A DNA stretch of 64,000 nt from a candidate division TM6 bacterium GW2011_GWF2_28_16 (GTDB lineage: Bacteria; Patescibacteriota; Microgenomatia; UBA1400; PJMF01): contig CP011212.1 in NCBI GenBank assembly GCA_001029715.1, positions 398,936-462,935 on the forward strand. The letters are read 5' to 3'. Below are positions 9,652 to 44,849 of this stretch, one piece after another. The notes beneath the pieces are model-generated. The model was given only the letters and a program-made list of their open reading frames with translations. It was not told the DNA's origin and did not search any database. Position 1 is the first letter of the stretch; each line of letters opens with the position of its first letter. The position numbers and the translations under genes were made by a program.

Positions 9652-10043
9652 TTAAAGTAAATCTTTTTGTTGGTTCTCGCTATCCTGTTAATCGACATAA
9701 AATTAAAGAAACTGTAGAAAAAATTTTGATTGAGCACAACATAAGCAGTGCTCAAGTTGACGTTTCAATTGTAGGAGCCAGAAAAATTACTACTTTAAAT
9801 GAGAAATACTTAAAACATCAGGGTCCAACAGATGTTTTATCTTTTCCACAACACGATAAAGGACAATTGGAAGACGTTCCCATGCCAGAAGGAGAAGTAG
9901 TTCATTTGGGAGATATAGTAATTAGTTTTCCAGAAGCAGTCAGAATGGCCAAAAGATTTGGTAAGATGGTTGACCAGCAAATTTGTTTTTATTTAGAACA
10001 CGCCTTATTACACCTGCTCGGTTACCATCATGACGATCATTAG
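9648..10043 (+). CDS. ybeY: rRNA maturation endoribonuclease YbeY
   Basis: C-terminal metal-binding motif EHALLHLLGYHHDDH, matching the H..H..LHL.GYDH signature of UPF0054/YbeY. Confidence 0.75.
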   Translation: MIKVNLFVGSRYPVNRHKIKETVEKILIEHNISSAQVDVSIVGARKITTLNEKYLKHQGPTDVLSFPQHDKGQLEDVPMPEGEVVHLGDIVISFPEAVRMAKRFGKMVDQQICFYLEHALLHLLGYHHDDH

Positions 10044-10083
10044 AAGTTGATTCAAATTTATTAATTTATGTTAGACTCTAACT

Positions 10084-16767: not shown

Positions 16768-17640
16768 TTATACTGCAACGGATAATCCGCCTTGGAAGGC
16801 AAGTAATTCTTCTGGGATTTCAGCCTCAGACGAATATTGAGCTCCAGGAATTGCAAGAGATCTGCTTTTTTCGTTTTTACCATCAAGACCAGCTCCTATC
16901 AAAAAATAATTTGCAATTAATAGAAGATAAAAATCTGGACTACTTATTTTTTGATGTTTCTCGTCAACGTCATCTGTGACATTTTTTTCGAGCATATTAA
17001 TAGAGACAAAACTAGTCGCTCCATCCAATAGCGCTCGTTTTTTCATGGCTTCTTGAGTTCGTCCGGTGTCACCAAGATCTTCGAGAGAATAAATTTTTTT
17101 ATCTTTTATTTTAGCTGCGTTCCAAATTTCAAATTTGACCTCTTCACTAAAAGTTGTCTCACCGCTTGAGCTTGTAGCTCTAACTGGCATTGAATTAAGA
17201 CCAGTATCTTCAAGTGAATTTATTTTATCTCCAAATTGTTTTTTTAATAAAATAAGACATTTTTCTTCAAATTTTTCTTTAAACCATTTGGCACCCTCTA
17301 GATTGTAAATAATGAGAGATTGTTCTGCTTTTTGCCTAAACTCTTCAAGAGTTAGATCTTCTTCTCCATCAGATATTTCATTAATAAAGATTTGAATGTA
17401 CCAATTAATTGATTCGTTGAGAATAAATTCTGGAATTAAAGGAGCAAACCATCTGTCTTCGTCAAGAAGTTCTTTAACTTGTTGCTCAATCTTATTTTTT
17501 TCATCATCAGCTAGTTTATGAGGATATTTTCCATTATCTGAAGAATAAGGGGATTTAATTGTTCCCTTCTTTATTTCTAAGTTCAATCTGTTGTTGCTAC
17601 TTTTTTCTTCTTGAGAAGACATAAAGGAATAATATATCAC
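16768..17640 (-). CDS. Hypothetical acidic soluble protein (290 aa)
   Basis: ORF track; no TM and no recognisable motif. Sits 7 nt from the convergent ATPase stop. Confidence 0.5.
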   Translation of the reverse strand: MIYYSFMSSQEEKSSNNRLNLEIKKGTIKSPYSSDNGKYPHKLADDEKNKIEQQVKELLDEDRWFAPLIPEFILNESINWYIQIFINEISDGEEDLTLEEFRQKAEQSLIIYNLEGAKWFKEKFEEKCLILLKKQFGDKINSLEDTGLNSMPVRATSSSGETTFSEEVKFEIWNAAKIKDKKIYSLEDLGDTGRTQEAMKKRALLDGATSFVSINMLEKNVTDDVDEKHQKISSPDFYLLLIANYFLIGAGLDGKNEKSRSLAIPGAQYSSEAEIPEELLAFQGGLSVAV

Positions 17641-17779
17641 AAGAGGTCATTTTTGTCTTGCAATGGAGTTTTTTTGGTGATGGGGAGCAGTTTTGAAGGA
17701 TTTAATGATGCGTTTTTTAGAGTCAGCGTTAGGGATGAAAAAATAAATAAGCTCTTTTTAGAAAAGTTAGAGGAGATTT

Positions 17780-19996
17780 CTAAGAAATTTGATTAAAAAG
17801 TTGATCAGAAACTTCGCTTAATTTAATTTGTAGCGGAGGACCAGATGGATCAATAGGCTCATGTTTAAAACCAATTAAAGCAATGTTTTCTGAGCTGTTA
17901 TCTTTTTCATTCATGGGGTTCACTGTATTATCAATTCCCAGCATAGTTTCTCTAATTTGCGTTTTAATGGTTTTGACTCTGGATTCATCCCAGTTTCCAG
18001 GATTAATCTTGCCTTCAAGTCTTTTGAGAGAAGACAGGATAATACGTTTAAGGGTTTTATCTTCAAGAGTATCCAAATATTTAAGATCTTGCTGAGCTAA
18101 ATAAAAATGTTTGTTAAGTTTTAATAGAGAATAACCAAATTCTTCTTCAACTTCTGAGTTGATACTCGAACTTGGGTTGTCCCAGTCTTTTGGTTGATAT
18201 GAATATGGTAAGACATAAAGATGGGAGCTATTAGTAACTTCTTTTCGTTGATAGTCTTCCATCTGTTCTATTTCTGTTGTTCTATTTTCTGCAATTGGCT
18301 TAGCTGCAATAGTCGAGTTTTGATAAAGATCGCGATTTTTAATTGCTAATAGATATGAAAAAACTACTCTTTCTATCCAAGCTTTTTCAGTAGGAGCTAA
18401 TTTAGATAAGGTTGGAGTTTCCATCTGTTCATTGATTCCAAAAGTAAACACTCTTTTGCCTAGTTGCAAAGAAACTTGTAAATTGTGAGGGCTGACAGTG
18501 CGCTTGAAAGTAAGTTGTTTCAAGCCAACTTGAAACAATAATTTGTCCTGACCCTGAGACTGATCAAGGTTTACACTAATACCTCTTTTGGAAACAGGGA
18601 ACATTCCACCCCTAGCTTGGTCTTTGAGTTCTGTTAGCGGAGTGGTTTCATTTAAATTTAATTCAGGACGAAGAAAAGCTAAAACAGCTGCAACTTCGGT
18701 TACTTCTAATGGTTTGTTAGATAAATTAAGTAAATGAGGAAGATTGGTTCTAAATTCTGCAAGCGAAGATGGATCTAATTCGTCTAAATTATCTAGAGTA
18801 ATATTTCCTCTCCAAGTCAGAAGAATATTTTCTTGATTATTAACAGTTTTTGAGGGGAGTACAAAACCACCAAAATTGCCTTCTTTTTTTATTAGAAGCA
18901 ATTCTTCTTCCATAATGAATTCAATCAGCTTATTTGCCAAGGGATCATGAGTAAAATTGTCAGATTTTTCACAAAATGCTGTCAGATTTTGTTCTGACCC
19001 TGTCATTTTGGCAAAAGAATCTAAACCAGCCGATCTTACGTTTTTGTTAAAAATGCGGTCATCAGCTAAAGAAATAGGAGGACATTCAAAAACTTTTCTT
19101 AAAATTATTTCTTTGGCTTTTGATTTTTTGAGATTAACCCTCATTTGGGCTTGTCTCTCTTTTCTTCTAGAGCTGACATGAGTAATCGTTAATTTTCCGT
19201 TTTCATCATATTTTCCACGACTATCTACTGCTACATAAGCACTCAGGGCGTCAAATGTTTCCAGAACATACTGAGCCTGACAACGCATTTTATAGTCAGG
19301 GTGATGGAGCCGTGTAAAACTAAGAGCGTCGAACAAATTATAGGAGTTTTCTATTTTGTCGTAACCTAAGTCCTCAAATGTTTCTAAAATTATTAATTGT
19401 TTTTCGCGATCTTTACATTTTAAAATTTCTGAAGAAAGCCGATAAAGATTGCTAATAATTTTTTTGAAAGGGAGATCGTCAATTTTTGGAATGGCCTGCT
19501 CCGGAGTTCCCTTCCTTTTTCTTTTTTTATCAGTTTCGTTTTTTGGATCAAATTCTTCTTGATTAATTGATCCTCTAATTCCATTAATTCGAGATTGAGT
19601 AGCAGCATCTTTTAATAAAGGTGAGACAGCATCAGTGCCTTGATTAAAATACTCAATTTTATCTTTATGTTCTTGAAAAAATTTATCTAAAGTGTGGTCG
19701 AAAATTTGGAAATCAGACATGCCCATATTTGTTGCAAGAATCAAAGCTTCTTGGTATTTAGCACTCAACTTAGAGTTTAGACCATTTATTAGAAAAGCAA
19801 ATTCATCATGGCTGCACCAGTGTTGTTCTTTTTGATCAGAGAGAAGTTCTAAAACCTTATCTAAGATTTTTTCTTCAAATTCTTCTAAAAGAAGATAAGA
19901 ACTTTCTTTAATTCCCGCATAAATTGGCAACAGATCGGAAAATTTTTGTGCCCGCTCAATTTGTTGATAATTTTCTAGTGGCTCACTTTCGCTCAT
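17780..19996 (-). CDS. Hypothetical large soluble protein (738 aa), unknown function
   Basis: ORF track; long uninterrupted frame with non-repetitive composition and a KKRKRKG basic patch. No nucleotide-binding or nuclease motif recognised. Confidence 0.55.
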   Translation of the reverse strand: MSESEPLENYQQIERAQKFSDLLPIYAGIKESSYLLLEEFEEKILDKVLELLSDQKEQHWCSHDEFAFLINGLNSKLSAKYQEALILATNMGMSDFQIFDHTLDKFFQEHKDKIEYFNQGTDAVSPLLKDAATQSRINGIRGSINQEEFDPKNETDKKRKRKGTPEQAIPKIDDLPFKKIISNLYRLSSEILKCKDREKQLIILETFEDLGYDKIENSYNLFDALSFTRLHHPDYKMRCQAQYVLETFDALSAYVAVDSRGKYDENGKLTITHVSSRRKERQAQMRVNLKKSKAKEIILRKVFECPPISLADDRIFNKNVRSAGLDSFAKMTGSEQNLTAFCEKSDNFTHDPLANKLIEFIMEEELLLIKKEGNFGGFVLPSKTVNNQENILLTWRGNITLDNLDELDPSSLAEFRTNLPHLLNLSNKPLEVTEVAAVLAFLRPELNLNETTPLTELKDQARGGMFPVSKRGISVNLDQSQGQDKLLFQVGLKQLTFKRTVSPHNLQVSLQLGKRVFTFGINEQMETPTLSKLAPTEKAWIERVVFSYLLAIKNRDLYQNSTIAAKPIAENRTTEIEQMEDYQRKEVTNSSHLYVLPYSYQPKDWDNPSSSINSEVEEEFGYSLLKLNKHFYLAQQDLKYLDTLEDKTLKRIILSSLKRLEGKINPGNWDESRVKTIKTQIRETMLGIDNTVNPMNEKDNSSENIALIGFKHEPIDPSGPPLQIKLSEVSDQLFNQIS

Positions 19997-20032
19997 AATT
20001 TAGATAAAAATTAATTTAAGGATGTTTATTTG

Positions 20033-20104
20033 TGACCCCACGCAGAATCGAACTGCGGTTACAAGGATGAGAACCTTGTGTCCTAACCACTAGACGATGG
20101 GGCC
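20033..20104 (-). tRNA. tRNA-Glu (anticodon CUC)
   Basis: Reverse complement GGCCCCATCGTCTAGTGGTTAGGACACAAGGTTCTCATCCTTGTAACCGCAGTTCGATTCTGCGTGGGGTCA folds as a cloverleaf. 7-bp acceptor stem, D-arm GTCT/GGAC, anticodon loop TTCTCAT, T-loop TTCGATT. CCA not encoded. Confidence 0.8.
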
Positions 20105-20183
20105 GATCCAGAGATTATACCAAATTTGCCTTGATTTTGTAAACGCTACACTTCTTGTAATTTGGTTCAGTGATAATAAGTTA

Positions 20184-20927
20184 ATGATAATTATTTTATT
20201 TTTCTTAACTTTATTTTTTTCTGTTAGACAAATTGAGGCACAGAGTTTTTCTTATCAATTTATTTTGGCAAATAATTCAATTGATTTAGATTTTTTAAAA
20301 AAGTTAGAATTAAATTTAGAAGAGCAAAAGCCAAAAAATTTTCTCTCTTTTGAATATAAGTTGGAAAAACAAAATGATTTGCCCTCAGATCTTCCTTTAT
20401 TTATTGTTGCTTTTGATAAAGAAGTGCTTTTTTCAGTCGATTCCAGCTTGGCAGATAGTTTATTTCACCAGGTAGAAATAAATTTAACCAATCGAAATGA
20501 TCGAATACCAGTTTTTTATCAAAGCAATTATTTAGATGGTTTTAAGCTCACATTGGAAAATTTAATTTTTATTGAAGAGCCAATTCTTAATAAGGATAAA
20601 ACTTCAATAATTAAAGACCTAAGCGTCATTAGAGAATTAGATCAATCTCTTAGCATTATTTTTTCTCTAGAAGAAACAGAAAAAAGACAACATTCTTTTC
20701 AGCTGATTTGTCTTGATGAAGGAGGCGAAGTTACAAACTCAAATAAATTATTTAAGAATGACGACTTTCTTTGGTCTGACTTTTTTTTTACAAATTCTTT
20801 TTCTAATAAAAAAAATGAATTTATTTTTCACTTGGATAAGCTCGAATGCTCTGGGCTTGTTTATGTACTTACTGACTTTTCTATTCAGTCAGATAAAACT
20901 TCAATTATCAGAGTGGAGGACTTATGA
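20184..20927 (+). CDS. Hypothetical secreted protein (signal peptide; start trimmed to avoid the tRNA)
   Basis: ORF track frame 20097..20927 overlaps the tRNA. The internal Met at 20184 starts MIIILFFLTLFFSVRQIEAQS, which is signal-peptide-like. Confidence 0.45.
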   Translation: MIIILFFLTLFFSVRQIEAQSFSYQFILANNSIDLDFLKKLELNLEEQKPKNFLSFEYKLEKQNDLPSDLPLFIVAFDKEVLFSVDSSLADSLFHQVEINLTNRNDRIPVFYQSNYLDGFKLTLENLIFIEEPILNKDKTSIIKDLSVIRELDQSLSIIFSLEETEKRQHSFQLICLDEGGEVTNSNKLFKNDDFLWSDFFFTNSFSNKKNEFIFHLDKLECSGLVYVLTDFSIQSDKTSIIRVEDL

Positions 20928-21532
20928 AGGAAATTAAATTAAATTGTTTTTCTTCGAATGAATTATGTATAAATTCTTCTTCTCTTGAAAATTTTGTAAT
21001 CAATGATCCAACAGATCAGGAATTTTCTTTGCAAATTGCAAACCATGGCAATAAGGATTGTGAGCTTAATTTATCAACAAAGAATTTCAATGAAGATAGT
21101 TTTTTTGGTCAAGTTGAGCTTTTAATTTCTAGTCAAAATGAATTATTTTTTCGAGATAATTTGGACCAGTTTTTTAAGCAAAAAATAAACCTGAGCTCGA
21201 TTAGGGCTCAATCTTCAAAAACATATTATTTTTATTTAGATTTTCTAAATTTAATAACCAATGAAGAACAATTTTCAGTTAATTTTGACTTGTTGCTTGA
21301 TTTTGTTTGCCATGAGCCAAGTAAATTAGAGGAATTGCCTAATGAAGCTAATGAACTAGAAATAGAAACGCAAGAATTTACTAAGGGAGTGGTTTTATCT
21401 GCTAGTTCTAGTGCGGAGGTGAAACAGAATCTCCCACAAGTTTTTTTGTTTTTCTATTTATTGTCGATCTTGTTTGTCATAGCTTTTTTTGTCATAATTA
21501 AATTCATTAATGGCAAAAATAAGAAAAAGTAA
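20924..21532 (+). CDS. Hypothetical surface protein with C-terminal hydrophobic anchor and basic tail
   Basis: C-terminus ...NLPQVFLFFYLLSILFVIAFFVIIKFINGKNKKK, a hydrophobic helix plus KNKKK resembling a sorting-signal or tail-anchor architecture. 4-nt overlap with the upstream gene. Confidence 0.45.
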   Translation: MKEIKLNCFSSNELCINSSSLENFVINDPTDQEFSLQIANHGNKDCELNLSTKNFNEDSFFGQVELLISSQNELFFRDNLDQFFKQKINLSSIRAQSSKTYYFYLDFLNLITNEEQFSVNFDLLLDFVCHEPSKLEELPNEANELEIETQEFTKGVVLSASSSAEVKQNLPQVFLFFYLLSILFVIAFFVIIKFINGKNKKK

Positions 21533-35057: not shown

Positions 35058-35834
35058 ATGACTAAATCAAGACAGCTTAGTATTTACGAAAAAAATCAAT
35101 TGCTTAGATATGGTTTAAAGGAAGATGATCTTTTAGCTAGAGCTGAAATGCCTGTCGAATATTTGACTGGCTTTGTAAACTTCAAAAATTTAGAAATAAA
35201 AGTTAATCAAAATGTTTTAATTCCTAGGGTAGAAACTGAAGAATTAATTGATTTAATAACTAATTTTATTGATTCTATTAGAGCGCCACTTTCTTGTTTA
35301 GAAGTAGGTACGGGAAGCGGAGCAATCAGTCTTGCTCTTTTTGATTTTTTATCAAGACAAAAAAATTTACTTTTGGAAAAATTTATTTTAACTGATCTTT
35401 CTACAGCTGCCTTAAAAATAGCTAAAGAAAATTTTTCTAGATTATTTGGAACAGGATCTCTTTCAAAAATTCAATTTTTAGAAAATGATTTGTTGAGTGG
35501 ATTTTCAGAGCAAAAGTTTAATTTAATTGTTGCTAATCTCCCATATGTTCCTTCTGGCAAAATGGCAAATTTAGACTTAAGCGTCAAAGATTATGAACCA
35601 ATTTTAGCTCTTAATGGAGGAGAGAGCGGTTTTGAATTGATTAACAAAATGCTAGAACAAGTTTTAGATAAAGAATTATTGAGTGAAAAAGGTCAAATTT
35701 TTTTAGAGGTCTATGAAAATCACAACATTCAATTTATTAAAGAGAAGTTCCCTAAAATCTTTCAAAATTTTTCAATTAGAGAATCCAAAGATCAATTTAA
35801 TAGACAGCGTTTTTTAATTCTTCAGAAGATTTAG
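35058..35834 (+). CDS. prmC: Release-factor glutamine N5-methyltransferase PrmC/HemK
   Basis: SAM motif LEVGTGSGAISLAL; catalytic VANLPYVP (NPPY-type). Confidence 0.75.
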   Translation: MTKSRQLSIYEKNQLLRYGLKEDDLLARAEMPVEYLTGFVNFKNLEIKVNQNVLIPRVETEELIDLITNFIDSIRAPLSCLEVGTGSGAISLALFDFLSRQKNLLLEKFILTDLSTAALKIAKENFSRLFGTGSLSKIQFLENDLLSGFSEQKFNLIVANLPYVPSGKMANLDLSVKDYEPILALNGGESGFELINKMLEQVLDKELLSEKGQIFLEVYENHNIQFIKEKFPKIFQNFSIRESKDQFNRQRFLILQKI

Positions 35835-36947
35835 GTATTGCTCTGCGACTTTTTCTATTTGATATTTTTTTATAAAGTTTTGTTGGGCATTCTTAGCTAG
35901 TTTTTTTTGTAAATTTTTATCTTTAAGTAATTCAATGATTTTATTTGATAAATCAATGTAATCTTTATTTTTAGCTAATAAAGAATTTTTTTCGTTGCTG
36001 AGGATTTCGTTTCCAGGGGCACGATCAAAGGCAACAATTGGTTTAGCAAAGGCCATGGCTTCAATAATGGTTAAACCAAAACCCTCTAGAGACCAAACTG
36101 AGGGGCAGACAATCAGCTCACTCTCTTCGATAGCTTTTTGTTTATTTTTAACATATTGAAGAAATTTAATTTGTTGATCATTTTTAGCCATCAATTTAAG
36201 TTCTTTTTCAAAATTTCCTTGACCGATAATTAGGAGCTCGGCATCTTTAAATTCTTTTTTGACTAAGGCAAAAGCTTTAATTGCTAAATCTTGTCCTTTA
36301 CCTTTTTCAAGTCTAGAGATAACAGTAATAGTTCGTTTTTTAATTGTTTTTTGTCTTTTTAATGAGGGAATAAAACTTCCACAAGGAATAATAATCATTT
36401 TTTCTTTGGCAAAGACTTTTTTGAGGGCAAATTAAGTGTTATTTGATGGAACAATAATTTTAGAAGCAATATTTTTAGTTAGGAAATAAAGGAATTTTGG
36501 AATTCCTCTGAGTTTTACAAAAAGTGGTTCCAGTGGACCATACTCTATGAAAAAAGTGGGCAAATTAAACAACTTAGATAAAGGTCCGGGAATAATTTTT
36601 TCTGAAAAACCAGAGTAAATAACAACTTGTTTTGAAGATCTTTTTTTAATCTCTGAGAAGACTTTGAAATAATAAATTATGGCAAAAGGGCTTAGTAAAA
36701 TACTTTTTAGTAAACCTCTCCGATTGCTGGCAAAATCTAAATAAAGAGGAGTTTTTTTAACTTGTAGATTTTTTTTGTTAGTTAAGTTTTTTAATAGAAA
36801 GTCATTGCTGGTGTAAAGATATACAAAATTGCCCTTTTTAGCCAATTCAAGCAATAAATCTTTGGCGAATTGTTCTGCTCCGCCGAAATCTTTACTTTGA
36901 AGGAAAAAGTTAATAGTTATTTTTTTCGGTTTGAACGATGATTCCAT
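35814..36947 (-). pseudogene. GT4-family glycosyltransferase interrupted by a single in-frame TAA (two ORFs, same frame)
   Basis: ORF 36432..36947 holds the N-terminal GT-B domain (FGGAEQFAKDLLLELAKKG). ORF 35814..36398 holds the C-terminal domain (EGFGLTIIEAMAFAKPIVAFD). Both are in the same frame, separated only by the stop at 36432-36434. Confidence 0.55.
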
Positions 36948-37164
36948 TTAGATTTTCTGGCAACATATCTGATATTTTTTCAAAAAATGGTCTAAAAATA
37001 GGAATTAAAATATTGACTAAAACTAATAGGACAATGATGTTAAAAAACCAAGCTCCTGCGCTACGAGCCATTCCAGCCAAAAAATTTTTCCTCATAACCA
37101 TCCAATTACTGACATCATAAATAGTGTCGTGTTTTTCTAAGTTGAGTTTATGGTCTTTTGTCAT
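36910..37164 (-). CDS. Small single-TM protein (84 aa); weak
   Basis: ORF track; one hydrophobic helix; overlaps the 5' end of the GT4 frame by 38 nt. Confidence 0.3.
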   Translation of the reverse strand: MTKDHKLNLEKHDTIYDVSNWMVMRKNFLAGMARSAGAWFFNIIVLLVLVNILIPIFRPFFEKISDMLPENLNGIIVQTEKNNY

Positions 37165-37270
37165 TTTTATATTCTAGCTTTTCTTTTTAACTAACTCAAG
37201 CAAAAGAATTTTGTTGATGTTATACTTGACGCATTCAAAATCAAAAAATTTAAAAATAGAAAGGTTTTTA

Positions 37271-39487
37271 ATGTCTTTTAGATCTGGTAAGTGGCAAGAA
37301 GAAATTAACACTAGGGATTTTATTTTAAATAATTTTACTCCCTACGATGGCGATAATTCTTTTCTAAAAGGTCCCACCGAAGCGACCAAAGAACTTTGGC
37401 AAAAATCTAGCGAACTTTTACAAAAAGAGATGAAAAATGGTGGTATTTTAGATATTGATACCAAAACCATCTCTTCAATAACCAGCCATAAACCTGGATA
37501 TTTAGATAAGAAAATTGAAAAGATTGTTGGTTTTCAAACAGACGCTCCACTAAAAAGAGCCATGAAGCCTTATGGAGGTATTAGAGTGGTTGAGGCTGCT
37601 TGTGAAGAAAATGGCTACAAAGTTGATCCGGCAGTTTCTGAAATTTTTAATAAATATCGTAAATCTCATAATGATGGTGTTTTTGATGTTTATACTAAAA
37701 CTATGCGTCAACTACGTTCAACTGGTATTTTGACTGGTTTACCAGACAATTATGCTCGTGGCAGAATTATTGGTGATTATCGTCGTGTGGCTTTATATGG
37801 TATCGATCGTTTAGTTGAGGCCAAAAAAGCAGATAAAGAGACTTTGGATGGCGTAATGACTGATGATTTAATCAGACTCCGTGAAGAAATCAGTGAACAA
37901 ATTAAAGCTTTAGGAGAAATGAAGGAAATGGCTCTTAGCTATGGCTTTGATATTTCTAAACCAGCCAAAAATGCTCAAGAAGCCATTCAATGGACTTGGT
38001 TTGGTTTCTTAGCCGCTCTAAAGGAACAAGATGGTGCAGCCATGAGTTTGGGCAATGTCAGTACTTTTTTTGATGTTTATATCGAAAGAGATCTAAAAAA
38101 TGGCAATTTAACTGAAGTTGAGGCTCAAGAATTAGTTGATCATTTCATCATGAAATGTCGTCTCATTCGTCATTTGCGCATGGATGCTTATAATGAGCTT
38201 TTTGCTGGAGATCCAACCTGGATTACGGAAGCAATTGGTGGCTTTTTCTCTAATGGTCAACACAAAATTACCAAGACTAGTTTTAGATTTTTACAAAGTT
38301 TATATAATATTGGTCCAGCTCCAGAGCCAAACTTAACTATTTTATGGTCAGATAAGCTTCCAAAGGGTTTCAAGAAGTTTGCTGCTCAGGTTTCGATTGA
38401 CACTTCTTCACTGCAATATGAAAATGACAGCCTGATGCGTGAGGCAGGCAATTGTGATGATTATTGTATTGCTTGTTGTGTTTCGATGATGGAAACCGGC
38501 AAAGAAATGCAATTTTTTGGAGCACGCTGCAATTTAGCTAAAGCTTTGCTAATGGCTCTTAATGAGGGTCGTGATGAAATCAGTGGTGAGCTAGTGGTGA
38601 CTGGAATTGAAAAAATGCCAGCTGGCCCAATTAAATATGAAGAATTTATTAAGAGATTTAAGCAAACTGTAGCTTATTTAGCTAAAGCTTACGTTAATAC
38701 CATGGACGTCATTCATTATATGCATGACAAATATTATTATGAAAAAGCTCAAATGGCCTTGATGGATACCGAGGTTAAAAGAAATATGGCTTTTGGTATG
38801 GCAGGATTAAGCGTAGTGGCAGATTCTATTTCAGCGATTAAATTTGCCAAAGTTACACCAATTCGCAATGAAGAAGGTTTGACGACTGGTTTTGAGACAG
38901 AAGGTGAATTCCCAATGTATGGCAATGATGATGATCGCGTTGATACAATCGCTCAGAGCTTGGTTAGCGATTTTAATAAAGAATTGGCTAAGCAACACAT
39001 TTATCGTGATGCAACTCCAACTTTGTCGATTTTAACCATCACTTCTAACGTTGTTTATGGCAAGAAAACTGGTTCTACCCCAGACGGACGTAAAAAAGGT
39101 GAACCTTTTGCTCCAGGAGCGAATCCAATGCATGGTCGTGATCATTCAGGTGCAATTGCCTCACTAAATTCAGTGGCCAAGATTGATTATCATGATGCTA
39201 GAGATGGTGTTTCTAACACTTTTTCAATCGTGCCAAAAACCTTAGGTGAAAATAAGGAAACTCAGGTCAACAATCTTTTGGCAATGCTTGATGGTTACTT
39301 TAACAAAAACGCTCATCACCTAAACGTTAATGTTTTGAATCGTGAAACTTTGGAAGATGCTATGAAGCATCCAGAGAAATATCCACAATTAACCATTCGT
39401 GTTTCTGGATATGCGGTTAACTTTGTCAGACTGAGTGAGGCTCATCAACGAGAAGTCATTGCTAGAACCTTTCATGAAAGCATGTAA
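37271..39487 (+). CDS. pflB: Formate C-acetyltransferase (pyruvate formate-lyase)
   Basis: Collinear with E. coli PflB across the full length ([18 protein letters not shown], catalytic CC in IACCVS, glycyl-radical motif RVSGYAV). GAAAGG RBS 7 nt before the chosen ATG; the ORF-track frame opens at 37211. Confidence 0.9.
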
Positions 39488-40220
39488 TCTGAAAATCCAT
39501 TCGATTGAAACCTTTGGGACTCATGATGGTCCAGGTATTCGTTTGGTAATTTTTGCACAGGGCTGTCTTTTTCGCTGTCTTTATTGTCACAACCCAGACA
39601 CACAAGCTTTGGAAACTGATAAAACCAAAACGATTAAAATTAAAGAAATTCTTGAACTTTTAGAAAAGCAAAGAACCTATTTTGGCAAAACTGGTGGCTT
39701 AACGATTTCTGGTGGTGAGCCAACACTACAAGCCACTGGGTTAATTGAACTTTTCAAAGAATGCAAAAAAAGAGCTTTTAATACCTGTCTCGATACTTGT
39801 GGAGCAATTTATAGCCGAGAAGTGCAAGAGCTTTATGATTTAGCTGATTTAGTCATGCTTGATGTTAAACACATTGATGATGGCTGGCACCAAAAATTAA
39901 CTGGGATGAGCAATGCTAATACTCTTAAAAACGCTGCTTATCGAGAAAAAACAGGCAAAGAATTGTGGTTGCGCTATGTTTTGGTGCCCGGTTGGACCGA
40001 TCAAGAAGAACATCTGGAAACATGGGCTAAGTATTTTGCAAATTATAAAACTCTTAAAAGAGTAGAATTAATTCCTTATCATAAATTAGGAGTTTTTAAG
40101 TATGAGGCTTTGGGTCGTAAATATGAACTCGATGGAGTTGAGCCCCCGACAAAAACTGAGATTGCTAAAGCAGCAGAAATTTTTATAAAGTATTTAGGTA
40201 ATAAAGTTGTGGTGGTTTAA
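39474..40220 (+). CDS. pflA: Pyruvate formate-lyase activating enzyme (radical SAM)
   Basis: [10 protein letters not shown] (CxxxCxxC) and GGEP motif. Start taken at [23 protein letters not shown], overlapping the pflB end by 14 nt. Confidence 0.85.
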
Positions 40221-40247
40221 GTCATCTCAATGAATAGAAAGTAAATT

Positions 40248-42335
40248 ATGAATTTTGAAGCCCTTTTTTATCCAAAGTCGATCGCTATTGTTGGTGCATC
40301 TAGTAGAGAGAAAACAGTTGGTAATGACGTGGTTAAAAACCTTGTTAGACAGGGCTATGAGGGTAAAATTTATCCAATTAATCCGAAAATTAATAGGCTC
40401 TATGATTTGAAGGTTTATGAGAGTATTGAAAAAATTGCAGATAAAATTGATTTATTAGTGGTGGCTATTCCAGCTAAATTTGTGGCCGAAGAAATTCGTA
40501 AGTCTGCCGAAAAAGGCACTAAGGCTGTGATTGTTATTTCAGCTGGCTTCAAAGAAGCTGGCAATCTAGAACTAGAAAAAGAACTGGCTGAAACTTGCAA
40601 TGAGCTTGAAATTACCTTAATCGGCCCAAATTGTTTGGGTGCAATTAATGCTGAGCATAGCATGAATGCTTCTTTCGCTGCCATCATGCCACCAGTCGGA
40701 GATGTAGCTTTCTTCTCTCAAAGTGGTGCTCTATGCACTGCAGTTTTGGATTATGCCAAAGATATGGGCATTGGTTTCTCTAAGTTTGTGAGTATTGGCA
40801 ATAAAGCTGCTTTAGATGAGCTAGATTTAATTAAATATTTGCATGAAGATCCAAAAACCAAAGTCATTTGTCTTTATGCCGAATCTCTTGAAAATGCTCC
40901 AGAATTTATCAAGGTTTTACGTGAACTGAATAGAGGGGAAAATCCTAAACCAATTATTGTGCTTAAATCTGGTAAGACTAGTGCTGGTGCTGGAGCAATT
41001 GCTTCACATACTGGTTCTTTAAGCAGTGGAGATAGTGCTTACGAAGCTCTTTTTGCTCAGGCAGGGATTATTCGTGCCAATAGCATCAGCGAACTTTTTG
41101 ATTTAGCTCAGGTTTTTTCGATGAATGAGCTCCAAAAAGTTAAAAAAGTAACTATCATCACTAATGCTGGCGGTCCAGGTGTTTTGACTACTGATGCAGT
41201 TGTAGAGAGTGGTTTGGAAATGGCTGAATTAGATCCTAAGACAGTTGCTAAATTGCATTCTTTTTTACCTGCTGCTGCTAGCACTCACAATCCAGTTGAT
41301 GTTTTGGGTGATGCAGTAGGAGAGGTCTATGAAAAGACAATTAGTGTTTTAGCTAAAGATCCAGGCACCGATGCCATTATTCTTCTTTTGACACCTCAAT
41401 CAATGACTGAGCCAGTTAAAACTGCTGAAGCAGTGGTAAAAATGCGTAAAACTAGCAAAAAACCAGTGGTAGTGAGTTTAATGGGCCGAGCTTTGGTAGC
41501 TGAAGGGGTAGAAGTTTTAAAAGAAAATAAAATTGCTTCAACTACTTTTCCAGAGCCAGCCGCAACAGCTTTGGCCAAATTTGCTAAATTTAGTGAATGG
41601 AGTAAAGAAAAGAATGAGTTAGCTTTAAGTTATGATGATGTTGATAAAGCTAAGGTGGCTACAATTTTCACGGAGGCCAAGAGTAAGGGGCAAACTTCTT
41701 TTCCAGAAGCAGAGGCAATGGAGATCATGAGGGCTTATAAATTTCCGCTAATGAAATCTGCTGTAGTTAAAAATGCCAAAGAAGCTTTAAGAATGATGCA
41801 AGAATTTAATTGCGAAGTGGCAATGAAAATTGTTTCTCCAGATATTTTGCACAAAAGCGATGTTGGCGGAGTTAGTTTGGGGGTTACTGCAGAGACTGTA
41901 GTTACTGAATATCAAGCAATGATAAAAAGAGTTGCGCAAAATAAACCTGAAGCAAAATTAGAGGGTGTTTTATTATTACAAATGGCAAAAAAAGGCACAG
42001 AGTTAATTTTGGGTATTAATAAAAATTCTTTAGGCACAATGCTAATGTTTGGTTTGGGTGGTATTTATGTAGAGATATTTAAAGATGTGAAATTTGCTTT
42101 TGCTCCGCTAACCAGAGCTGATGCTTTAAGTATGATAAATGGTTTACATTGTAGTAAATTATTAGAAGGAGCCAGAGGCGAAAAGGCAGTTGATAAAGAA
42201 AAAATTATTGAAGCTATTGGTCGCTTGTCTCAATTGGTAAATGATTTTCCAGAAATTGTTGAATTAGACATCAACCCTTTATTGGTTAATGCTGAAGGCA
42301 CTAAAGTTTTAGATGCAAGAGTGGTGATTGAATAA
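40248..42335 (+). CDS. ADP-forming acetyl-CoA synthetase (fused alpha/beta, NDP-forming acyl-CoA synthetase superfamily)
   Basis: N-terminal CoA-binding domain (IAIVGAS...GYEGKIYPINPK), succinyl-CoA-synthetase-like ligase domain, and C-terminal ATP-grasp domain (VAMKIVSPDILHKSDVGGV). Confidence 0.8.
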   Translation: MNFEALFYPKSIAIVGASSREKTVGNDVVKNLVRQGYEGKIYPINPKINRLYDLKVYESIEKIADKIDLLVVAIPAKFVAEEIRKSAEKGTKAVIVISAGFKEAGNLELEKELAETCNELEITLIGPNCLGAINAEHSMNASFAAIMPPVGDVAFFSQSGALCTAVLDYAKDMGIGFSKFVSIGNKAALDELDLIKYLHEDPKTKVICLYAESLENAPEFIKVLRELNRGENPKPIIVLKSGKTSAGAGAIASHTGSLSSGDSAYEALFAQAGIIRANSISELFDLAQVFSMNELQKVKKVTIITNAGGPGVLTTDAVVESGLEMAELDPKTVAKLHSFLPAAASTHNPVDVLGDAVGEVYEKTISVLAKDPGTDAIILLLTPQSMTEPVKTAEAVVKMRKTSKKPVVVSLMGRALVAEGVEVLKENKIASTTFPEPAATALAKFAKFSEWSKEKNELALSYDDVDKAKVATIFTEAKSKGQTSFPEAEAMEIMRAYKFPLMKSAVVKNAKEALRMMQEFNCEVAMKIVSPDILHKSDVGGVSLGVTAETVVTEYQAMIKRVAQNKPEAKLEGVLLLQMAKKGTELILGINKNSLGTMLMFGLGGIYVEIFKDVKFAFAPLTRADALSMINGLHCSKLLEGARGEKAVDKEKIIEAIGRLSQLVNDFPEIVELDINPLLVNAEGTKVLDARVVIE

Positions 42336-42368
42336 GCTAAAGCCATCTGGTGTTATAATATTCTTTAA

Positions 42369-43499
42369 ATGAAATCAGCTATTTATGCTTTTTCTGGCGA
42401 TCCAATTACCTTCGGTCATCTTGATGTTATTCAGCGTGCAGCAGCAGTTTTTGATCGCTTGGTGGTAGCGATTGGTCTTAATCCTGCTAAAAAATATCTT
42501 TTTTCTCAAGAAAAACGCACTGAAATGGCGCGTAGATCCCTTTTGACTCTTAAAAATGTAGAAGTGAAATCTTTTCAAGGAATGTTGGTGGATTTTGCTT
42601 ATGAAAATAATATTGATGTGATTGTCAAAGGAGTTAGAAGTGCTCAGGATTTTGAGTATGAGCAAAGCTTACACAGCTTAGGTGAAAGCCAGAAACTTGG
42701 AATAGATACTTTTATTCTTTTTGCTAAACCGTCATTGGCACATATTAGTTCAAGCGCGGTCAAAGAAATTCAGCAAGAACAAGGCTTAATTCAAGATTAT
42801 GTGCCAAGCTATGTTAAACAATGCGTCGAAGCCAAGTTGAGTGAGCAATTCATTGTTGGTCTAACTGGTGAGATTGGAGTTGGGAAATCTTATCTTGGGC
42901 AAAAAATGGTAGCTTTGGCTCAAAAAATGGGTTTAGAAGCACATAACATTGAGTTAGATCATTTGTCTTGGCAAATTCAGTCAGATCTTAAAGAAGAAAA
43001 ATATGAAGTAGTCAGAAAAAAAATTATTGATACTTTTGGTGCAGAAATTGCCAATAATGATGGCAGTATTAACCGTAAGATTTTGGGTGAAATTGTTTTT
43101 GCCAATCAAAAAAAATTAGATAAACTCAATGAAATTATGGAGACTCCAATTTTAGTGCGTTTACGTAGAGAGCTAAAAAATAAGAAAGGTTTAATTTTTC
43201 TTAACGCAGCTTTACTAGTTGAGGCACAAATGAGCCAGCTTTCTAATTACAACACGATTTTGCTCGGTGTGGATGAAAAAACTCAGCAAGAGCGACTTCT
43301 AGAAAGAGGATTAAACAAAGAGCAAATTAAAAGAAGATTAAAAAGTCAGTATGATTTTGCTAATAAGAAAAAGAATTTGCAAAAAGAAATTGAGATGAGC
43401 AAGCAAGGTAAACTTTGGACTTTGAATAAGAAAAATGTTACTGGTGAAGAAATGAAAAAACTATTAAATGAGCTTTTGCTTTATTTTGGCATCAATTAG
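42369..43499 (+). CDS. Bifunctional phosphopantetheine adenylyltransferase / dephospho-CoA kinase (CoaD-CoaE fusion)
   Basis: Residues 1-160 are collinear with PPAT (AIYAFSGDPITFGHLDV, KGVRSAQDFEYE, ISSSAVKE). Residues ~165-376 carry the DPCK P-loop GLTGEIGVGKS. Confidence 0.8.
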   Translation: MKSAIYAFSGDPITFGHLDVIQRAAAVFDRLVVAIGLNPAKKYLFSQEKRTEMARRSLLTLKNVEVKSFQGMLVDFAYENNIDVIVKGVRSAQDFEYEQSLHSLGESQKLGIDTFILFAKPSLAHISSSAVKEIQQEQGLIQDYVPSYVKQCVEAKLSEQFIVGLTGEIGVGKSYLGQKMVALAQKMGLEAHNIELDHLSWQIQSDLKEEKYEVVRKKIIDTFGAEIANNDGSINRKILGEIVFANQKKLDKLNEIMETPILVRLRRELKNKKGLIFLNAALLVEAQMSQLSNYNTILLGVDEKTQQERLLERGLNKEQIKRRLKSQYDFANKKKNLQKEIEMSKQGKLWTLNKKNVTGEEMKKLLNELLLYFGIN

Positions 43500-44069
43500 A
43501 ACACCTAGCTTGAATCTCACTAAAGAATAAATCGTTACACAGATAAGAAAAATATAAACGGGGAATCCCCAATGAGCAAAAGTCCAAGATTTAATTGTCA
43601 AGAGAGTTATTCCGGCATTAATCATGCCAAAAAGAAAAATTTTGTAGCTTTCTGATTCTGGTTGACGGTAAGATTTAACAACAGTTGGAATAGAAGCAAA
43701 ACCATCAGCCAAAATAGCAAAGAAGATGGCTAAATTCCCTTCACCAGTTAACTGCCAAATAAGAATTGCAAAAAGAGAAATAGAGCCATAGACGTAGTCC
43801 ATTTTATTTAATTTCCAGTATGATTTTTTGTTAACAAAAGAAGCAATGATAATTAAAAGAGGATTAAAGCCAGTCATAAAAGTCATTAATGAAGTTAATC
43901 CAACTCCTTTGTCTATTTCAGCAGCAAAAGCAATCATTGGGGCTAAGGTCCACAAAAACCAACTAACTCGATTAGGCTTAGTTTTGCCTTTGATGGTATC
44001 AATGAGATAAGTAAGACCACCGTAAAAAGATATTAAAGCTCCCAAAATAATAAATTTTTCATCTAGCAT
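43464..44069 (-). CDS. Hypothetical 6-TM membrane protein
   Basis: ORF track; hydrophobic; 36-nt convergent overlap with the CoaDE gene. Confidence 0.45.
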   Translation of the reverse strand: MLDEKFIILGALISFYGGLTYLIDTIKGKTKPNRVSWFLWTLAPMIAFAAEIDKGVGLTSLMTFMTGFNPLLIIIASFVNKKSYWKLNKMDYVYGSISLFAILIWQLTGEGNLAIFFAILADGFASIPTVVKSYRQPESESYKIFLFGMINAGITLLTIKSWTFAHWGFPVYIFLICVTIYSLVRFKLGVLIDAKIKQKLI

Positions 44070-44084
44070 GCTTGCATTTTAGCA

Positions 44085-44849
44085 CTAGCTTAGTTCTATA
44101 GAAATGGGGCAGTGGTCTGAACCAAGAATATCTTGATGAATTTCTGCTTTTTTAAGTTTTTTACGTAAATTTGGACTAATAAAGAAATAATCGATTCTCC
44201 AGCCAACGTTGCGTTGTCTAGCTCCAGATCGTTGGCTCCACCAAGAATATTGATCTTTTAGATCAGGATGGAGAGCGCGGAAACTATCTATAAATCCAAT
44301 GCCTAGTAATTTATCTATCCAAGCTCTTTCTTCTTTGAGAAAGCCAGAAATCTGGCTATTTTCCTTTGGTCTAGCTAGATCGATTTCTCGATGAGCAGTG
44401 TTAACATCACCGCAAATGACAATGTTTTTTTCGGTTTTAAGTAATTCCTTTAGATAATCTAGTAAGAAATCATAATAAGCCATTTTGTAGGCGAGGCGCT
44501 CAGAAGAGGCTTTGCCATTGGGAAAATAAATATTGAAGAGAATAAAATTTTCAAATTTAGTAATTAAGGTTCGACCTTCGCGGTCAAATTTTTCATTGTT
44601 GAGACCAATTTTGACTTCGTAGGGTTCTTTTTTACTGTAAGTTATTACTCCACTGTAACCTTTTCTTTCTGCCCAAGCGAAATGACTATGAAAGTTTTCT
44701 AATTCAGTCAATTCAAAACCTAGCTGATCAGGAGAAGCCTTGCTTTCTTGCAAACAAACGATGTCAGCTTGATTGCTTTTCATCCAAGCAAAAAAGCCTT
44801 TTTTAGCAATTGCTCTAATGCCATTCACATTCCAAGAATAAATCTTCAT
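44085..44849 (-). CDS. xth: Exodeoxyribonuclease III (AP endonuclease)
   Basis: MKIYSWNVNGIRA...ADIVCLQESKA, ...DYFFIS..., SDHCPI. Start trimmed to MKIYSWNVNG; the ORF-track frame opens at 44903. Confidence 0.85.
   Translation of the reverse strand: MKIYSWNVNGIRAIAKKGFFAWMKSNQADIVCLQESKASPDQLGFELTELENFHSHFAWAERKGYSGVITYSKKEPYEVKIGLNNEKFDREGRTLITKFENFILFNIYFPNGKASSERLAYKMAYYDFLLDYLKELLKTEKNIVICGDVNTAHREIDLARPKENSQISGFLKEERAWIDKLLGIGFIDSFRALHPDLKDQYSWWSQRSGARQRNVGWRIDYFFISPNLRKKLKKAEIHQDILGSDHCPISIELS

What the first reader, a model, noticed from the sequence alone, without database searches (positions are those of the whole stretch)
42369..43499. CoaD-CoaE gene fusion (PPAT + dephospho-CoA kinase in one polypeptide)
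The last two steps of CoA biosynthesis are encoded as a single 376-aa protein. An N-terminal PPAT is collinear with bacterial CoaD through the ISSSAVKE motif. It is directly followed by a P-loop DPCK domain (GLTGEIGVGKS). In bacteria these are normally separate genes. The fused arrangement is the hallmark of eukaryotic CoA synthase (COASY). Here it immediately follows the acetyl-CoA-producing module. No CoaA/B/C is visible in the window, which may indicate salvage of 4'-phosphopantetheine from a host or partner.
Basis: partly seen in the sequence, partly recalled or inferred. Interest (0 to 1): 0.55.

Follow-up and report, generated by a model that had tools for sequence, protein, structure and literature searches.

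The report
Bacterial fused CoaD-CoaE CoA synthase
One 376-residue protein in this small candidate-phyla bacterium joins the last two enzymes of coenzyme A synthesis; the fusion is real and sits in a conserved operon with CoA-using fermentation enzymes, but it belongs to a widespread prokaryotic family and is only moderately surprising.

Summary
ORF 42369-43499 (+) is uninterrupted and encodes 376 aa. The N-half passes NCBIfam's bacterial CoaD equivalog cut-off (155 vs 103 bits). The C-half passes the CoaE equivalog cut-off (90 vs 66 bits). The mapped catalytic residues are kept in both halves, with two conservative changes in the CoaD half. An AlphaFold model (pLDDT 92, pTM 0.89) shows no linker between the halves.

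The exact protein is already public, from Candidatus Pacebacteria bacterium GW2011_GWF2_38_9. NCBI names it only as PPAT.

The fusion is neither rare nor specific to reduced genomes. About 300 clusters at 50% identity carry it. They span Patescibacteria, DPANN archaea, Fibrobacteres, Spirochaetes and Planctomycetes, including one 6.15 Mb chromosome.

It resembles eukaryotic COASY only by convergence, because the PPAT half is the bacterial CoaD type.

In the window's clade the gene follows an ADP-forming acyl-CoA synthetase in 34 of 80 species, usually behind pyruvate formate-lyase. In the sister clade it is fused or adjacent to an uncharacterised HD-superfamily protein in 24 of 80.

Salvage of 4'-phosphopantetheine is plausible but untested. 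No coaA, coaX or coaBC lies in the 64 kb window, and the rest of the genome could not be read.

The parts
42369..43499 (+). coaDE ORF, 376 aa plus stop: bifunctional phosphopantetheine adenylyltransferase / dephospho-CoA kinase
42369..42842 (+). CoaD (PPAT) domain, residues 1-158
   Evidence: TIGR01510 at 155.3 bits. PDB phmmer hits to bacterial PPATs, E 1e-32 to 1e-19. Foldseek TMt 0.93-0.96, rmsd 1.1-1.7 A.
42393..42419 (+). S9-GDPITF-G16-H17, the (T/S)xxDPxTxGH nucleotidyltransferase motif with the catalytic His (E. coli T10/H18)
   Evidence: D11, G16 and H17 are invariant in 18 diverse fused homologues. Positions checked. E. coli numbering is from memory of the E. coli CoaD sequence.
42744..42767 (+). 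I126-SSSAVKE-133, the ISSS(T) ATP-phosphate-binding motif of CoaD
   Evidence: S128 and K132 invariant, S127 nearly invariant
42846..43496 (+). CoaE (DPCK) domain, residues 160-376, including the normal C-terminal strand and helix of CoaE
   Evidence: TIGR00152 at 89.6 bits, PF01121 at 81.5 bits. PDB DPCK hits 2if2, 2f6r, 2grj, 1jjv. Model secondary structure.
42858..42890 (+). P-loop G164-LTGEIGVG-K173-S174
   Evidence: G167, G172 and K173 invariant. K173 aligns to the P-loop Lys (Mtb K14; PMC3019153).
42957..42959 (+). D197 codon, equivalent of the catalytic Asp (Mtb D32) of DPCK
   Evidence: Invariant. Aligned to the second Asp of the 'DAD' motif of 1jjv. Role from PMC3019153.
43293..43295 (+). 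R309 codon, equivalent of lid Arg140 of DPCK
   Evidence: Invariant. Column-by-column alignment to R140 of H. influenzae CoaE 1jjv.
42336..42368 (+). 33-nt spacer between acd and coaDE; contains TATAAT at 42354-42359
   Evidence: The spacer is 7 nt in L004 and 24 nt in L011. No terminator-like site lies between the two genes.
40248..42335 (+). ADP-forming acyl-CoA synthetase (ACD, fused alpha-beta), 695 aa, directly upstream
   Evidence: PF13549, PF13607, PF13380 and PF19045. It scores below every NCBIfam equivalog cut-off, so the acyl substrate is not assigned. It sits upstream of coaDE in 34 of 80 species.
39474..40220 (+). Pyruvate formate-lyase activating enzyme (radical SAM), 248 aa as called; the longest ORF starts at 39435
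37271..39487 (+). Pyruvate formate-lyase (glycyl radical enzyme), 738 aa as called; the longest ORF starts at 37211
   Evidence: PF02901 at 668 bits and PF01228 at 138 bits

Best explanation
The ORF encodes one polypeptide with two intact catalytic modules. A bacterial-type phosphopantetheine adenylyltransferase (CoaD, residues 1-158) converts 4'-phosphopantetheine + ATP to dephospho-CoA + PPi. A P-loop dephospho-CoA kinase (CoaE, residues 160-376) converts dephospho-CoA + ATP to CoA + ADP. The last helix of CoaD runs straight into the first strand of CoaE, so the two sites are rigidly coupled, and the intermediate may pass between them (inferred). The gene is the last member of a same-strand cluster pfl - pflA - acd - coaDE that is conserved across the Microgenomates-type Patescibacteria. 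CoA completion is therefore probably co-expressed with the branch pyruvate -> acetyl-CoA -> acetate + ATP, which uses CoA catalytically (co-transcription inferred). The fusion arose within prokaryotes from a bacterial CoaD and a CoaE. It appears to be one family that later spread across phyla and into DPANN archaea. It is analogous to eukaryotic COASY, not derived from it. The identity of both domains, their intactness, the operon conservation and the distribution are shown here. Enzyme activity, channelling, co-transcription and the source of 4'-phosphopantetheine are inferred.
For: Both halves exceed curated equivalog cut-offs and Pfam gathering scores. Functional residues are kept, and most are invariant in 18 homologues down to 33% identity. 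In CoaD these are S9, D11, G16, H17, K41, K87, R90, D94, E98 and S127-129. In CoaE they are G167, G172, K173, S174, D197, L282 and R309 (residue roles from PMC3019153). The AF2 model has pLDDT 92.3 and pTM 0.89 with no disordered linker. Its N-half superposes on PPAT crystal structures at 1.1-1.7 A. The identical protein was read on 20 independent contigs. An exhaustive search gives 314 clusters at E<=1e-30, and nearly all of the best 150 match both domains in one stretch. Among 80 GTDB species loci, acd lies directly upstream in 34, and pfl + pflA precede it in 23 of those. The gaps are 7-33 nt with no terminator-like site between the genes. In an NJ tree all ACD-linked proteins, including the window's, fall on one side of the midpoint root.
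Against: No enzymology exists for any member. Bacterial CoaD works as a hexamer, and whether a C-terminal CoaE is compatible with that assembly was not modelled. Co-transcription is inferred from spacing and synteny only. A TATAAT 10 nt upstream of the ATG could drive independent expression. The tree has no bootstrap support and no stand-alone CoaD or CoaE outgroups, so a single origin is likely but not proven.
Confidence: 0.85

Rival explanations
1. Salvage-only reading. The organism has no pantothenate kinase or CoaBC, so CoaDE is its whole CoA pathway and runs on 4'-phosphopantetheine, or a precursor of it, obtained from a host or the community.
For: No PanK, CoaB or CoaC family appears among the window's ORFs. 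The genome is about 853 kb (contig length). The family is common in reduced-genome CPR and DPANN lineages. In relatives the gene sits in cofactor-salvage neighbourhoods with NAPRTase, nicotinamidase, NAD synthase and NUDIX. A bona fide archaeal contig (CDP-archaeol synthase and an archaeal KH/beta-CASP nuclease as neighbours) carries this bacterial-type cassette. DPANN members were reported to lack the archaeal DPCK (PMC6650551).
Against: Only 7.5% of the genome was inspected. The same fusion occurs in a 6.15 Mb Sedimentisphaerales chromosome and in Fibrobacteres and Spirochaetes, so the fusion does not imply pathway loss. No transporter was identified. E. coli cannot take up 4'-phosphopantetheine (review PMC12570885). 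Pantothenate-to-CoA enzymes are reported in some Microgenomatia MAGs (PMC9166423).
Confidence: 0.45
2. Ordinary end of a complete pathway. coaX/coaA and coaBC lie elsewhere in the genome, and the fusion is just a compact version of the two terminal genes with no bearing on lifestyle.
For: The fusion is present in large free-living genomes. PMC9166423 reports CoA-pathway enzymes in some Microgenomatia. In the Sedimentisphaerales chromosome the gene sits alone with its HD partner, away from any pathway cluster, as scattered CoA genes usually do.
Against: CPR genomes of this size generally lack cofactor pathways (general knowledge; Saccharibacteria example in PMC11659515). Nothing of the upstream pathway is seen in 64 kb.
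Confidence: 0.4
3. One half is degenerate or moonlighting, for example a regulatory nucleotide-binding domain or an RNA CoA-capping activity, so the protein is not a two-step CoA synthase.
For: The DPCK half is fairly divergent (24-61 bits to solved DPCKs). PPAT can cap RNA with phosphopantetheine in vitro (abstract of PMC10761072).
Against: Every mapped catalytic or binding residue is present in both halves (two conservative substitutions in CoaD: S9 for T10 and K87 for R88), and most are invariant across the family. Both halves exceed equivalog cut-offs.
Confidence: 0.05
4. The gene is a eukaryote-derived COASY homologue acquired by horizontal transfer.
For: Same domain order. The DPCK half hits the mouse COASY DPCK domain (2f6r) at E 5e-14.
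Against: The N-half is a bacterial CoaD equivalog, and its best structural and sequence relatives are all bacterial. The DPCK half hits the 2if2 dephospho-CoA kinase chain better than COASY. There is no N-terminal extension. GC content (34.2%) equals that of the window.
Confidence: 0.02
5. Artefact: a frameshift, a missed stop or a chimeric assembly joins two separate genes.
For: None found.
Against: The reading frame is clean. The identical protein was read on 20 contigs from independent assemblies. Hundreds of homologues of about 375 aa share the architecture.
Confidence: 0.01

Closest known systems
Stand-alone bacterial CoaD (PPAT, e.g. E. coli 1b6t, M. abscessus 5o06) and CoaE (DPCK, e.g. 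2if2, H. influenzae 1jjv)
   Same: The sequence families (TIGR01510, TIGR00152), the fold of the PPAT half and the catalytic residues are the same. The chemistry expected of each half is the same.
   Different: The two are covalently joined with no linker. The fused family has SGDP where most CoaD have (T/S)FDP. The consequence for the PPAT hexamer is unknown.
Eukaryotic CoA synthase (COASY)
   Same: One chain with PPAT followed by DPCK, catalysing the last two CoA steps. The DPCK domain is homologous (2f6r, E 5e-14).
   Different: From established knowledge, the COASY PPAT domain is of the eukaryotic/archaeal type and is not orthologous to bacterial CoaD. COASY also has a long N-terminal targeting and regulatory region that is absent here. 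The origins are independent (convergent).
Archaeal PPAT fused to the arCOG04076 GTP-dependent DPCK (Shimosaka et al. 2019, PMC6650551)
   Same: A prokaryotic fusion of the same two consecutive steps.
   Different: Both domains belong to other families: an archaeal PPAT, and a DPCK with no significant sequence similarity to the known bacterial and eukaryotic DPCKs (PMC6650551). The DPANN archaea seen here carry the bacterial CoaD-CoaE type instead.
Truncated CoA pathways of mycoplasmas, including HAD-DPCK fusions (PMC8721197)
   Same: Reduced-genome bacteria keep only terminal CoA enzymes, and the DPCK is fused to a partner domain.
   Different: The partner there is a HAD phosphatase, not PPAT. 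Whether the upstream pathway is missing has not been established for this genome.
Bacterial CoaBC
   Same: A precedent for fusing two consecutive CoA-pathway steps into one bacterial protein.
   Different: Different steps (PPCS/PPCDC) and unrelated folds.

Membership tests
Bacterial CoaD / PPAT (TIGR01510, EC 2.7.7.3) | Profile score above the curated equivalog cut-off | tested here: met
   155.3 bits against a cut-off of 103.3, residues 4-156
Bacterial CoaD / PPAT (TIGR01510, EC 2.7.7.3) | (T/S)xxDPxTxGH motif with the catalytic His, plus K42, R88, R91, D95, E99 and the ISSS(T) motif (E. coli numbering, from memory) | tested here: met
   S9, D11, G16, H17, K41, K87 (R to K), R90, D94, E98 and I126-SSS-129 are present. 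D11, G16, H17, K41, R90, D94 and S128 are invariant in 18 homologues; S9, S127 and E98 are nearly invariant.
Bacterial CoaD / PPAT (TIGR01510, EC 2.7.7.3) | Nucleotidyltransferase Rossmann-like fold of PPAT | tested here: met
   The AF2 model (pLDDT 92.3) gives TMt 0.93-0.96 and rmsd 1.1-1.7 A over about 157 residues against PPAT crystal structures.
Bacterial CoaD / PPAT (TIGR01510, EC 2.7.7.3) | Homohexameric assembly and PPAT activity | not testable with these tools
   No multimer modelling or assay was available.
CoaE / DPCK (TIGR00152, PF01121, EC 2.7.1.24) | Profile score above the curated cut-offs | tested here: met
   TIGR00152 at 89.6 bits against 65.55; PF01121 at 81.5 bits against 27
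CoaE / DPCK (TIGR00152, PF01121, EC 2.7.1.24) | P-loop GxxGxGK(S/T), catalytic Asp (Mtb D32), substrate-cleft Leu (L114) and lid Arg (R140) | tested here: met
   G167-G172-K173-S174, D197, L282 and R309 are present. The alignment to 1jjv places R309 on R140 and L282 on L114. Residue roles come from PMC3019153.
CoaE / DPCK (TIGR00152, PF01121, EC 2.7.1.24) | ATP-dependent phosphorylation of the 3'-OH of dephospho-CoA | not testable with these tools
   This needs an enzyme assay.
Eukaryotic COASY | PPAT then DPCK on one polypeptide | tested here: met
Eukaryotic COASY | PPAT domain of the eukaryotic/archaeal type rather than a bacterial CoaD orthologue | tested here: not met
   The N-half is a TIGR01510 equivalog. 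All 34 PPAT chains matched in the PDB are named Phosphopantetheine adenylyltransferase; none is from COASY, whose only match is in the DPCK half. No COASY PPAT sequence was compared directly.
Eukaryotic COASY | N-terminal targeting and regulatory extension before the PPAT domain | tested here: not met
   The CoaD profile match starts at residue 4.
Archaeal PPAT-DPCK fusion (arCOG04076 type) | DPCK half belongs to arCOG04076 (GTP-dependent, not a CoaE homologue) | tested here: not met
   The C-half is a Walker-A CoaE. Family definition from PMC6650551.
Truncated (salvage-only) CoA pathway | Genome lacks pantothenate kinase and CoaB/CoaC | tested here: inconclusive
   They are absent from the 64 kb window. 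The remaining ~790 kb of the genome could not be read with these tools.
Truncated (salvage-only) CoA pathway | An uptake route for 4'-phosphopantetheine or dephospho-CoA | not tested
   No candidate was identified. The adjacent 201-aa membrane protein has no family assignment.

The most novel reading that the evidence does not exclude
CoaDE is a compact, horizontally mobile two-step CoA-completion cassette. It lets ultra-small symbionts (CPR bacteria and DPANN archaea that lack their domain's own late CoA enzymes) make CoA from partner-derived 4'-phosphopantetheine. In Microgenomates it is wired into the operon of the CoA-dependent, ATP-yielding pyruvate-to-acetate branch. In the sister clade it works with the uncharacterised COG4339-type HD phosphohydrolase, which supplies or recycles its substrate or removes a product such as PPi, 3',5'-ADP or a dinucleoside polyphosphate. 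That would assign a first function to that widespread orphan family.
Probability: 0.2. Interest if true: 0.6.

Novelty: new variant of a known kind. Interest (0 to 1): 0.35.

Why it matters
Both enzymes are textbook, and PPAT-DPCK fusion is textbook for eukaryotes, so the chemistry is not new. Four things are useful.

1. A prokaryotic CoaD-CoaE family exists and is large. It crosses the bacteria/archaea boundary. NCBI names it only as PPAT, so automated pathway reconstructions may score these genomes as lacking DPCK.

2. It may explain how DPANN archaea reported to lack the archaeal DPCK finish CoA.

3. Its conserved coupling to ACD and PFL in Microgenomates ties cofactor supply to what is probably these cells' CoA-dependent route of substrate-level ATP synthesis.

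4. The fusion or adjacency with the orphan HD-superfamily protein gives a concrete, testable functional lead for that family.

None of this would overturn current understanding.

Tried and rejected
- **Related-locus scan:** the 18-sequence alignment A1 was too diverse for the scan. It was repeated with 7 sequences.
- **Literature:** eight searches found no description of a prokaryotic CoaD-CoaE fusion and no function for COG4339. A ninth gave only general CPR surveys.
- **Promoter and terminator scan, 36800-44200:** fewer sites than in shuffled sequence, so it says nothing about transcript boundaries.
- **Stand-alone HD-like partner in the window:** none by tblastn.
- **201-aa membrane protein downstream as a transporter candidate:** no Pfam hit even at E<=10, and every source calls it hypothetical. 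It is conserved next to coaDE only in close relatives. It was not pursued as part of the system.
- **Genome-wide search for coaA/coaX/coaBC:** not possible. The window's own genome did not appear in the genome-contig scan, and look-ups return at most 10 kb flanks.
- **Eukaryotic origin and assembly artefact:** both considered and rejected (see rival explanations).

Full report
**Observation**

The + strand carries an uninterrupted ORF from ATG 42369 to TAG 43497-43499, 376 codons.

Pfam places PF01467 (cytidylyltransferase-like) at residues 11-133 and PF01121 (CoaE) at residues 162-336, both far above their gathering scores. NCBIfam is more specific. The bacterial PPAT equivalog TIGR01510 scores 155.3 bits (cut-off 103.3) over residues 4-156. 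The dephospho-CoA kinase equivalog TIGR00152 scores 89.6 bits (cut-off 65.55) over residues 162-344.

The identical protein was read on 20 contigs from independent assemblies. Its GC content (34.2%) equals that of the window.

**Are both halves intact?**

I aligned 18 fused homologues, down to 33% identity.
- Invariant in the CoaD half: D11, G16, H17, K41, R90, D94, S128 and K132.
- Invariant in the CoaE half: G167, G172, K173, D197 and R309.

By position, S9, H17, K41, K87, R90, D94 and E98 correspond to E. coli PPAT T10, H18, K42, R88, R91, D95 and E99. The E. coli numbering comes from my memory of that sequence.

In the kinase half, the HMMER alignment to H. influenzae CoaE (1jjv) puts the P-loop Lys on K173. 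It puts the second Asp of the 'DAD' motif on D197, L114 on L282 and R140 on R309. Mutagenesis of the M. tuberculosis enzyme showed these four residues to be critical for catalysis or substrate binding (PMC3019153).

An AlphaFold2 model built on the alignment has mean pLDDT 92.3 and pTM 0.89. Helix 147-158 of CoaD leads directly into strand 160-167, which precedes the P-loop, so there is no linker. The 40 residues after the Pfam match are the usual last strand and helix of CoaE, not an extra domain.

The N-half superposes on bacterial PPAT crystal structures with TM 0.93-0.96 and rmsd 1.1-1.7 A. No solved chain covers both halves.

**Organism and public status**

The protein is 100% identical to an NCBI entry from a Candidatus Pacebacteria bacterium, on an 853-kb contig. 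The neighbouring gene gives the full strain name GW2011_GWF2_38_9. NCBI names the protein only 'pantetheine-phosphate adenylyltransferase'. JGI names several homologues 'pantetheine-phosphate adenylyltransferase/dephospho-CoA kinase'. The architecture is therefore in databases. Eight literature searches found no paper describing a prokaryotic CoaD-CoaE fusion.

**Distribution**

An exhaustive phmmer search of 1.84 billion cluster representatives gives 314 clusters at E<=1e-30. Nearly all of the best 150 match residues 1 to about 360 in a single stretch, meaning they are fused.

A scan of one genome per GTDB species, using two narrow peptide patterns, found 175 relatives. The best 80 match about 350-376 of the query's 376 residues (one, on a short contig, only 294). 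Going by the depositors' titles, they come from:
- Patescibacteria: Pacebacteria, Woesebacteria, Microgenomatus, Dojkabacteria.
- Many DPANN archaea: Woese-, Pace-, Nano-, Aenigm- and Micrarchaeota, and Nanohaloarchaea.
- Fibrobacteres, Spirochaetales, a Clostridiales MAG and Thermodesulfobacteriota.
- Planctomycetes, including a closed 6.15-Mb Sedimentisphaerales chromosome.

One 411-kb Woesearchaeota contig is clearly archaeal. Its neighbours include a CDP-archaeol synthase and an archaeal KH/beta-CASP nuclease.

The fusion is therefore not a CPR peculiarity and does not by itself mark a reduced pathway.

**Genomic partners**

I ran tblastn of the window's proteins against all fetched loci. 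It shows two recurrent and mutually exclusive contexts.
- **ACD context (34 of 80 species).** An ADP-forming acyl-CoA synthetase gene lies directly upstream on the same strand. In 23 of these, PFL and its activase precede it. This is the window's arrangement, with gaps of 7-33 nt.
- **HD context (24 of 80 species).** A roughly 205-aa HD-like protein is fused to the C-terminus (5 loci, ORFs of about 585 aa) or encoded immediately downstream, often overlapping by 4 nt (19 loci).

A midpoint-rooted NJ tree separates the ACD-linked Patescibacteria clade, which contains the window's protein, from everything else. The tree has no support values.

**The HD partner**

It has no Pfam or NCBIfam family. 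JGI calls it a 'predicted metal-dependent HD superfamily phosphohydrolase'. NCBI misnames it 'NMDAR2C subunit'. A confident model (pLDDT 96.5) resembles only distant HD-superfamily folds such as PDE catalytic domains and YpgQ, with TM about 0.5-0.6. No copy lies in this window.

**Mechanism**

The best-supported reading is a bifunctional enzyme that converts 4'-phosphopantetheine to CoA using two ATP. It is probably expressed with the PFL-ACD branch. That branch uses CoA catalytically: pyruvate + CoA -> acetyl-CoA + formate, then acetyl-CoA + ADP + Pi -> acetate + ATP + CoA. The acyl substrate of the ACD is not formally assigned, because it scores below all equivalog cut-offs.

Domain identity, residue conservation, synteny and distribution are shown. 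Activity, channelling and co-transcription are inferred.

**Where does the 4'-phosphopantetheine come from?**

Pfam results for the window's ORFs of 100 aa or more (seven inside longer genes left out as spurious) show no PanK or CoaBC family. That covers only 64 of about 853 kb.

For salvage:
- The genome is small.
- The family is common in CPR and DPANN lineages.
- Relatives carry the gene in NAD-salvage neighbourhoods.
- DPANN members were reported to lack the archaeal DPCK (PMC6650551).

Against salvage:
- Large genomes carry the same fusion.
- No transporter is known, and E. coli cannot import 4'-phosphopantetheine (PMC12570885).
- Pantothenate-to-CoA enzymes are reported in some Microgenomatia (PMC9166423).

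I rate salvage-only at about 0.45 and a complete pathway at about 0.40.

**Comparison with known systems**

Each half meets every testable membership criterion of bacterial CoaD and of CoaE.

The protein works like COASY but is not a member. Only the DPCK half is homologous to COASY (2f6r, E 5e-14). The PPAT half is the bacterial type, and there is no N-terminal extension.

It also differs from the archaeal PPAT-arCOG04076 fusion (PMC6650551) and from the mycoplasma HAD-DPCK fusions (PMC8721197). PPAT-DPCK fusion has therefore arisen at least three times.

**Verdict**

This is a real, intact and correctly recognised gene fusion. It is a prokaryotic variant of a known kind of bifunctional enzyme, already present but under-annotated in public databases. 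Interest is moderate at 0.35. The most valuable leads are the cross-domain spread, the operon link to ACD and PFL, and the association with an orphan HD-family protein.

Noticed in passing
L009:9137-9763 (+); fused form in L007:8001-9767 (residues ~371-588); also L093:11122-11742: An uncharacterised ~205-aa HD-superfamily protein is fused to, or encoded immediately after, CoaDE in 24 of 80 species. These are DPANN archaea, Spirochaetales and Planctomycetes, never the ACD-linked Patescibacteria. It carries the motifs YHxxxH..C, WYHD and DxDLxxLG. JGI calls it a 'predicted metal-dependent HD superfamily phosphohydrolase'; NCBI misnames it 'NMDAR2C subunit'. It has no Pfam family, and 1262 clusters match at E<=1e-5. 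It is also found fused to a lone PF01467 domain (P0360) and to a nucleoside 2-deoxyribosyltransferase (P0308). The model has pLDDT 96.5, and only distant HD folds match it.
   Followed up: partly
L094 (GCA_016938695.1, 411-kb contig), gene 10001-11128; L035-L043, L050-L052, L056, L058, L061, L066, L068, L070, L075, L076: Bona fide DPANN archaeal contigs carry this bacterial-type CoaD-CoaE at 50-59% identity to the Patescibacteria protein. Neighbours on L094 include CDP-archaeol synthase and an archaeal KH/beta-CASP nuclease. PMC6650551 noted that Nanoarchaeota and other DPANN lack the archaeal DPCK, so this cassette may fill that gap.
   Followed up: partly
window 43464-44069 (-): A 201-aa multi-pass membrane protein (UT13_C0001G0451) converges on coaDE and overlaps its 3' end by 36 nt. 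It has no Pfam hit even at E<=10, and 1761 clusters match at E<=0.001 across Patescibacteria, including TM7, at about 60% identity or more. It sits next to coaDE only in relatives whose CoaDE is at least 74% identical. Function unknown.
   Followed up: partly
window 42369-43499; public record of P0001: NCBI names this protein only 'Pantetheine-phosphate adenylyltransferase'. The DPCK half is not reflected in the name, so name-based pathway reconstructions may score these genomes as lacking coaE.
   Followed up: yes
L009:10758-16015 and L007:2359-5932: In relatives without the ACD link, CoaDE sits among NAD-salvage genes (NAPRTase, nicotinamidase/isochorismatase, NAD synthase, NUDIX). This looks like a cofactor-salvage neighbourhood.
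   Followed up: no
window 35814-36398 (-) and 36432-36947 (-): A GT4-type glycosyltransferase appears split into two adjacent ORFs. The 194-aa ORF carries the Glycos_transf_1 C-terminal domain. The 171-aa ORF has only a faint Glyco_transf_4 N-terminal hit (E 0.02). The same split occurs in independent assemblies (L001, L002).
   Followed up: no
window 40248-42335 (+): The ACD (fused alpha-beta NDP-forming acyl-CoA synthetase) scores below every NCBIfam equivalog cut-off (best 606 bits against 1300 for 4-hydroxybutyrate-CoA ligase; 528 against 567 for the acetate-CoA ligase alpha domain). Its acyl substrate is assumed, not established.
   Followed up: no
window 42354-42359: A perfect TATAAT lies 10 nt upstream of the coaDE start codon, inside the 33-nt acd-coaDE spacer. 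The promoter scan did not call it because there is no -35 match. It could allow independent, nearly leaderless expression.
   Followed up: no
L013, L014, L016, L023, L025, L026, L028-L030, L032 and others: Many TPA metagenome bins titled 'uncultured Pseudomonadales bacterium' carry typical Patescibacteria gene content and synteny (PFL-ACD-CoaDE, 65-85% identity to the window). The organism names in those records look like placeholders or errors.
   Followed up: no
window 16768-21532: A run of sizeable ORFs has no Pfam family at E<=1e-4: 290 aa (-), 738 aa (-), 276 aa (+) and 202 aa (+). They flank tRNA-Glu(CTC) at 20032-20104.
   Followed up: no
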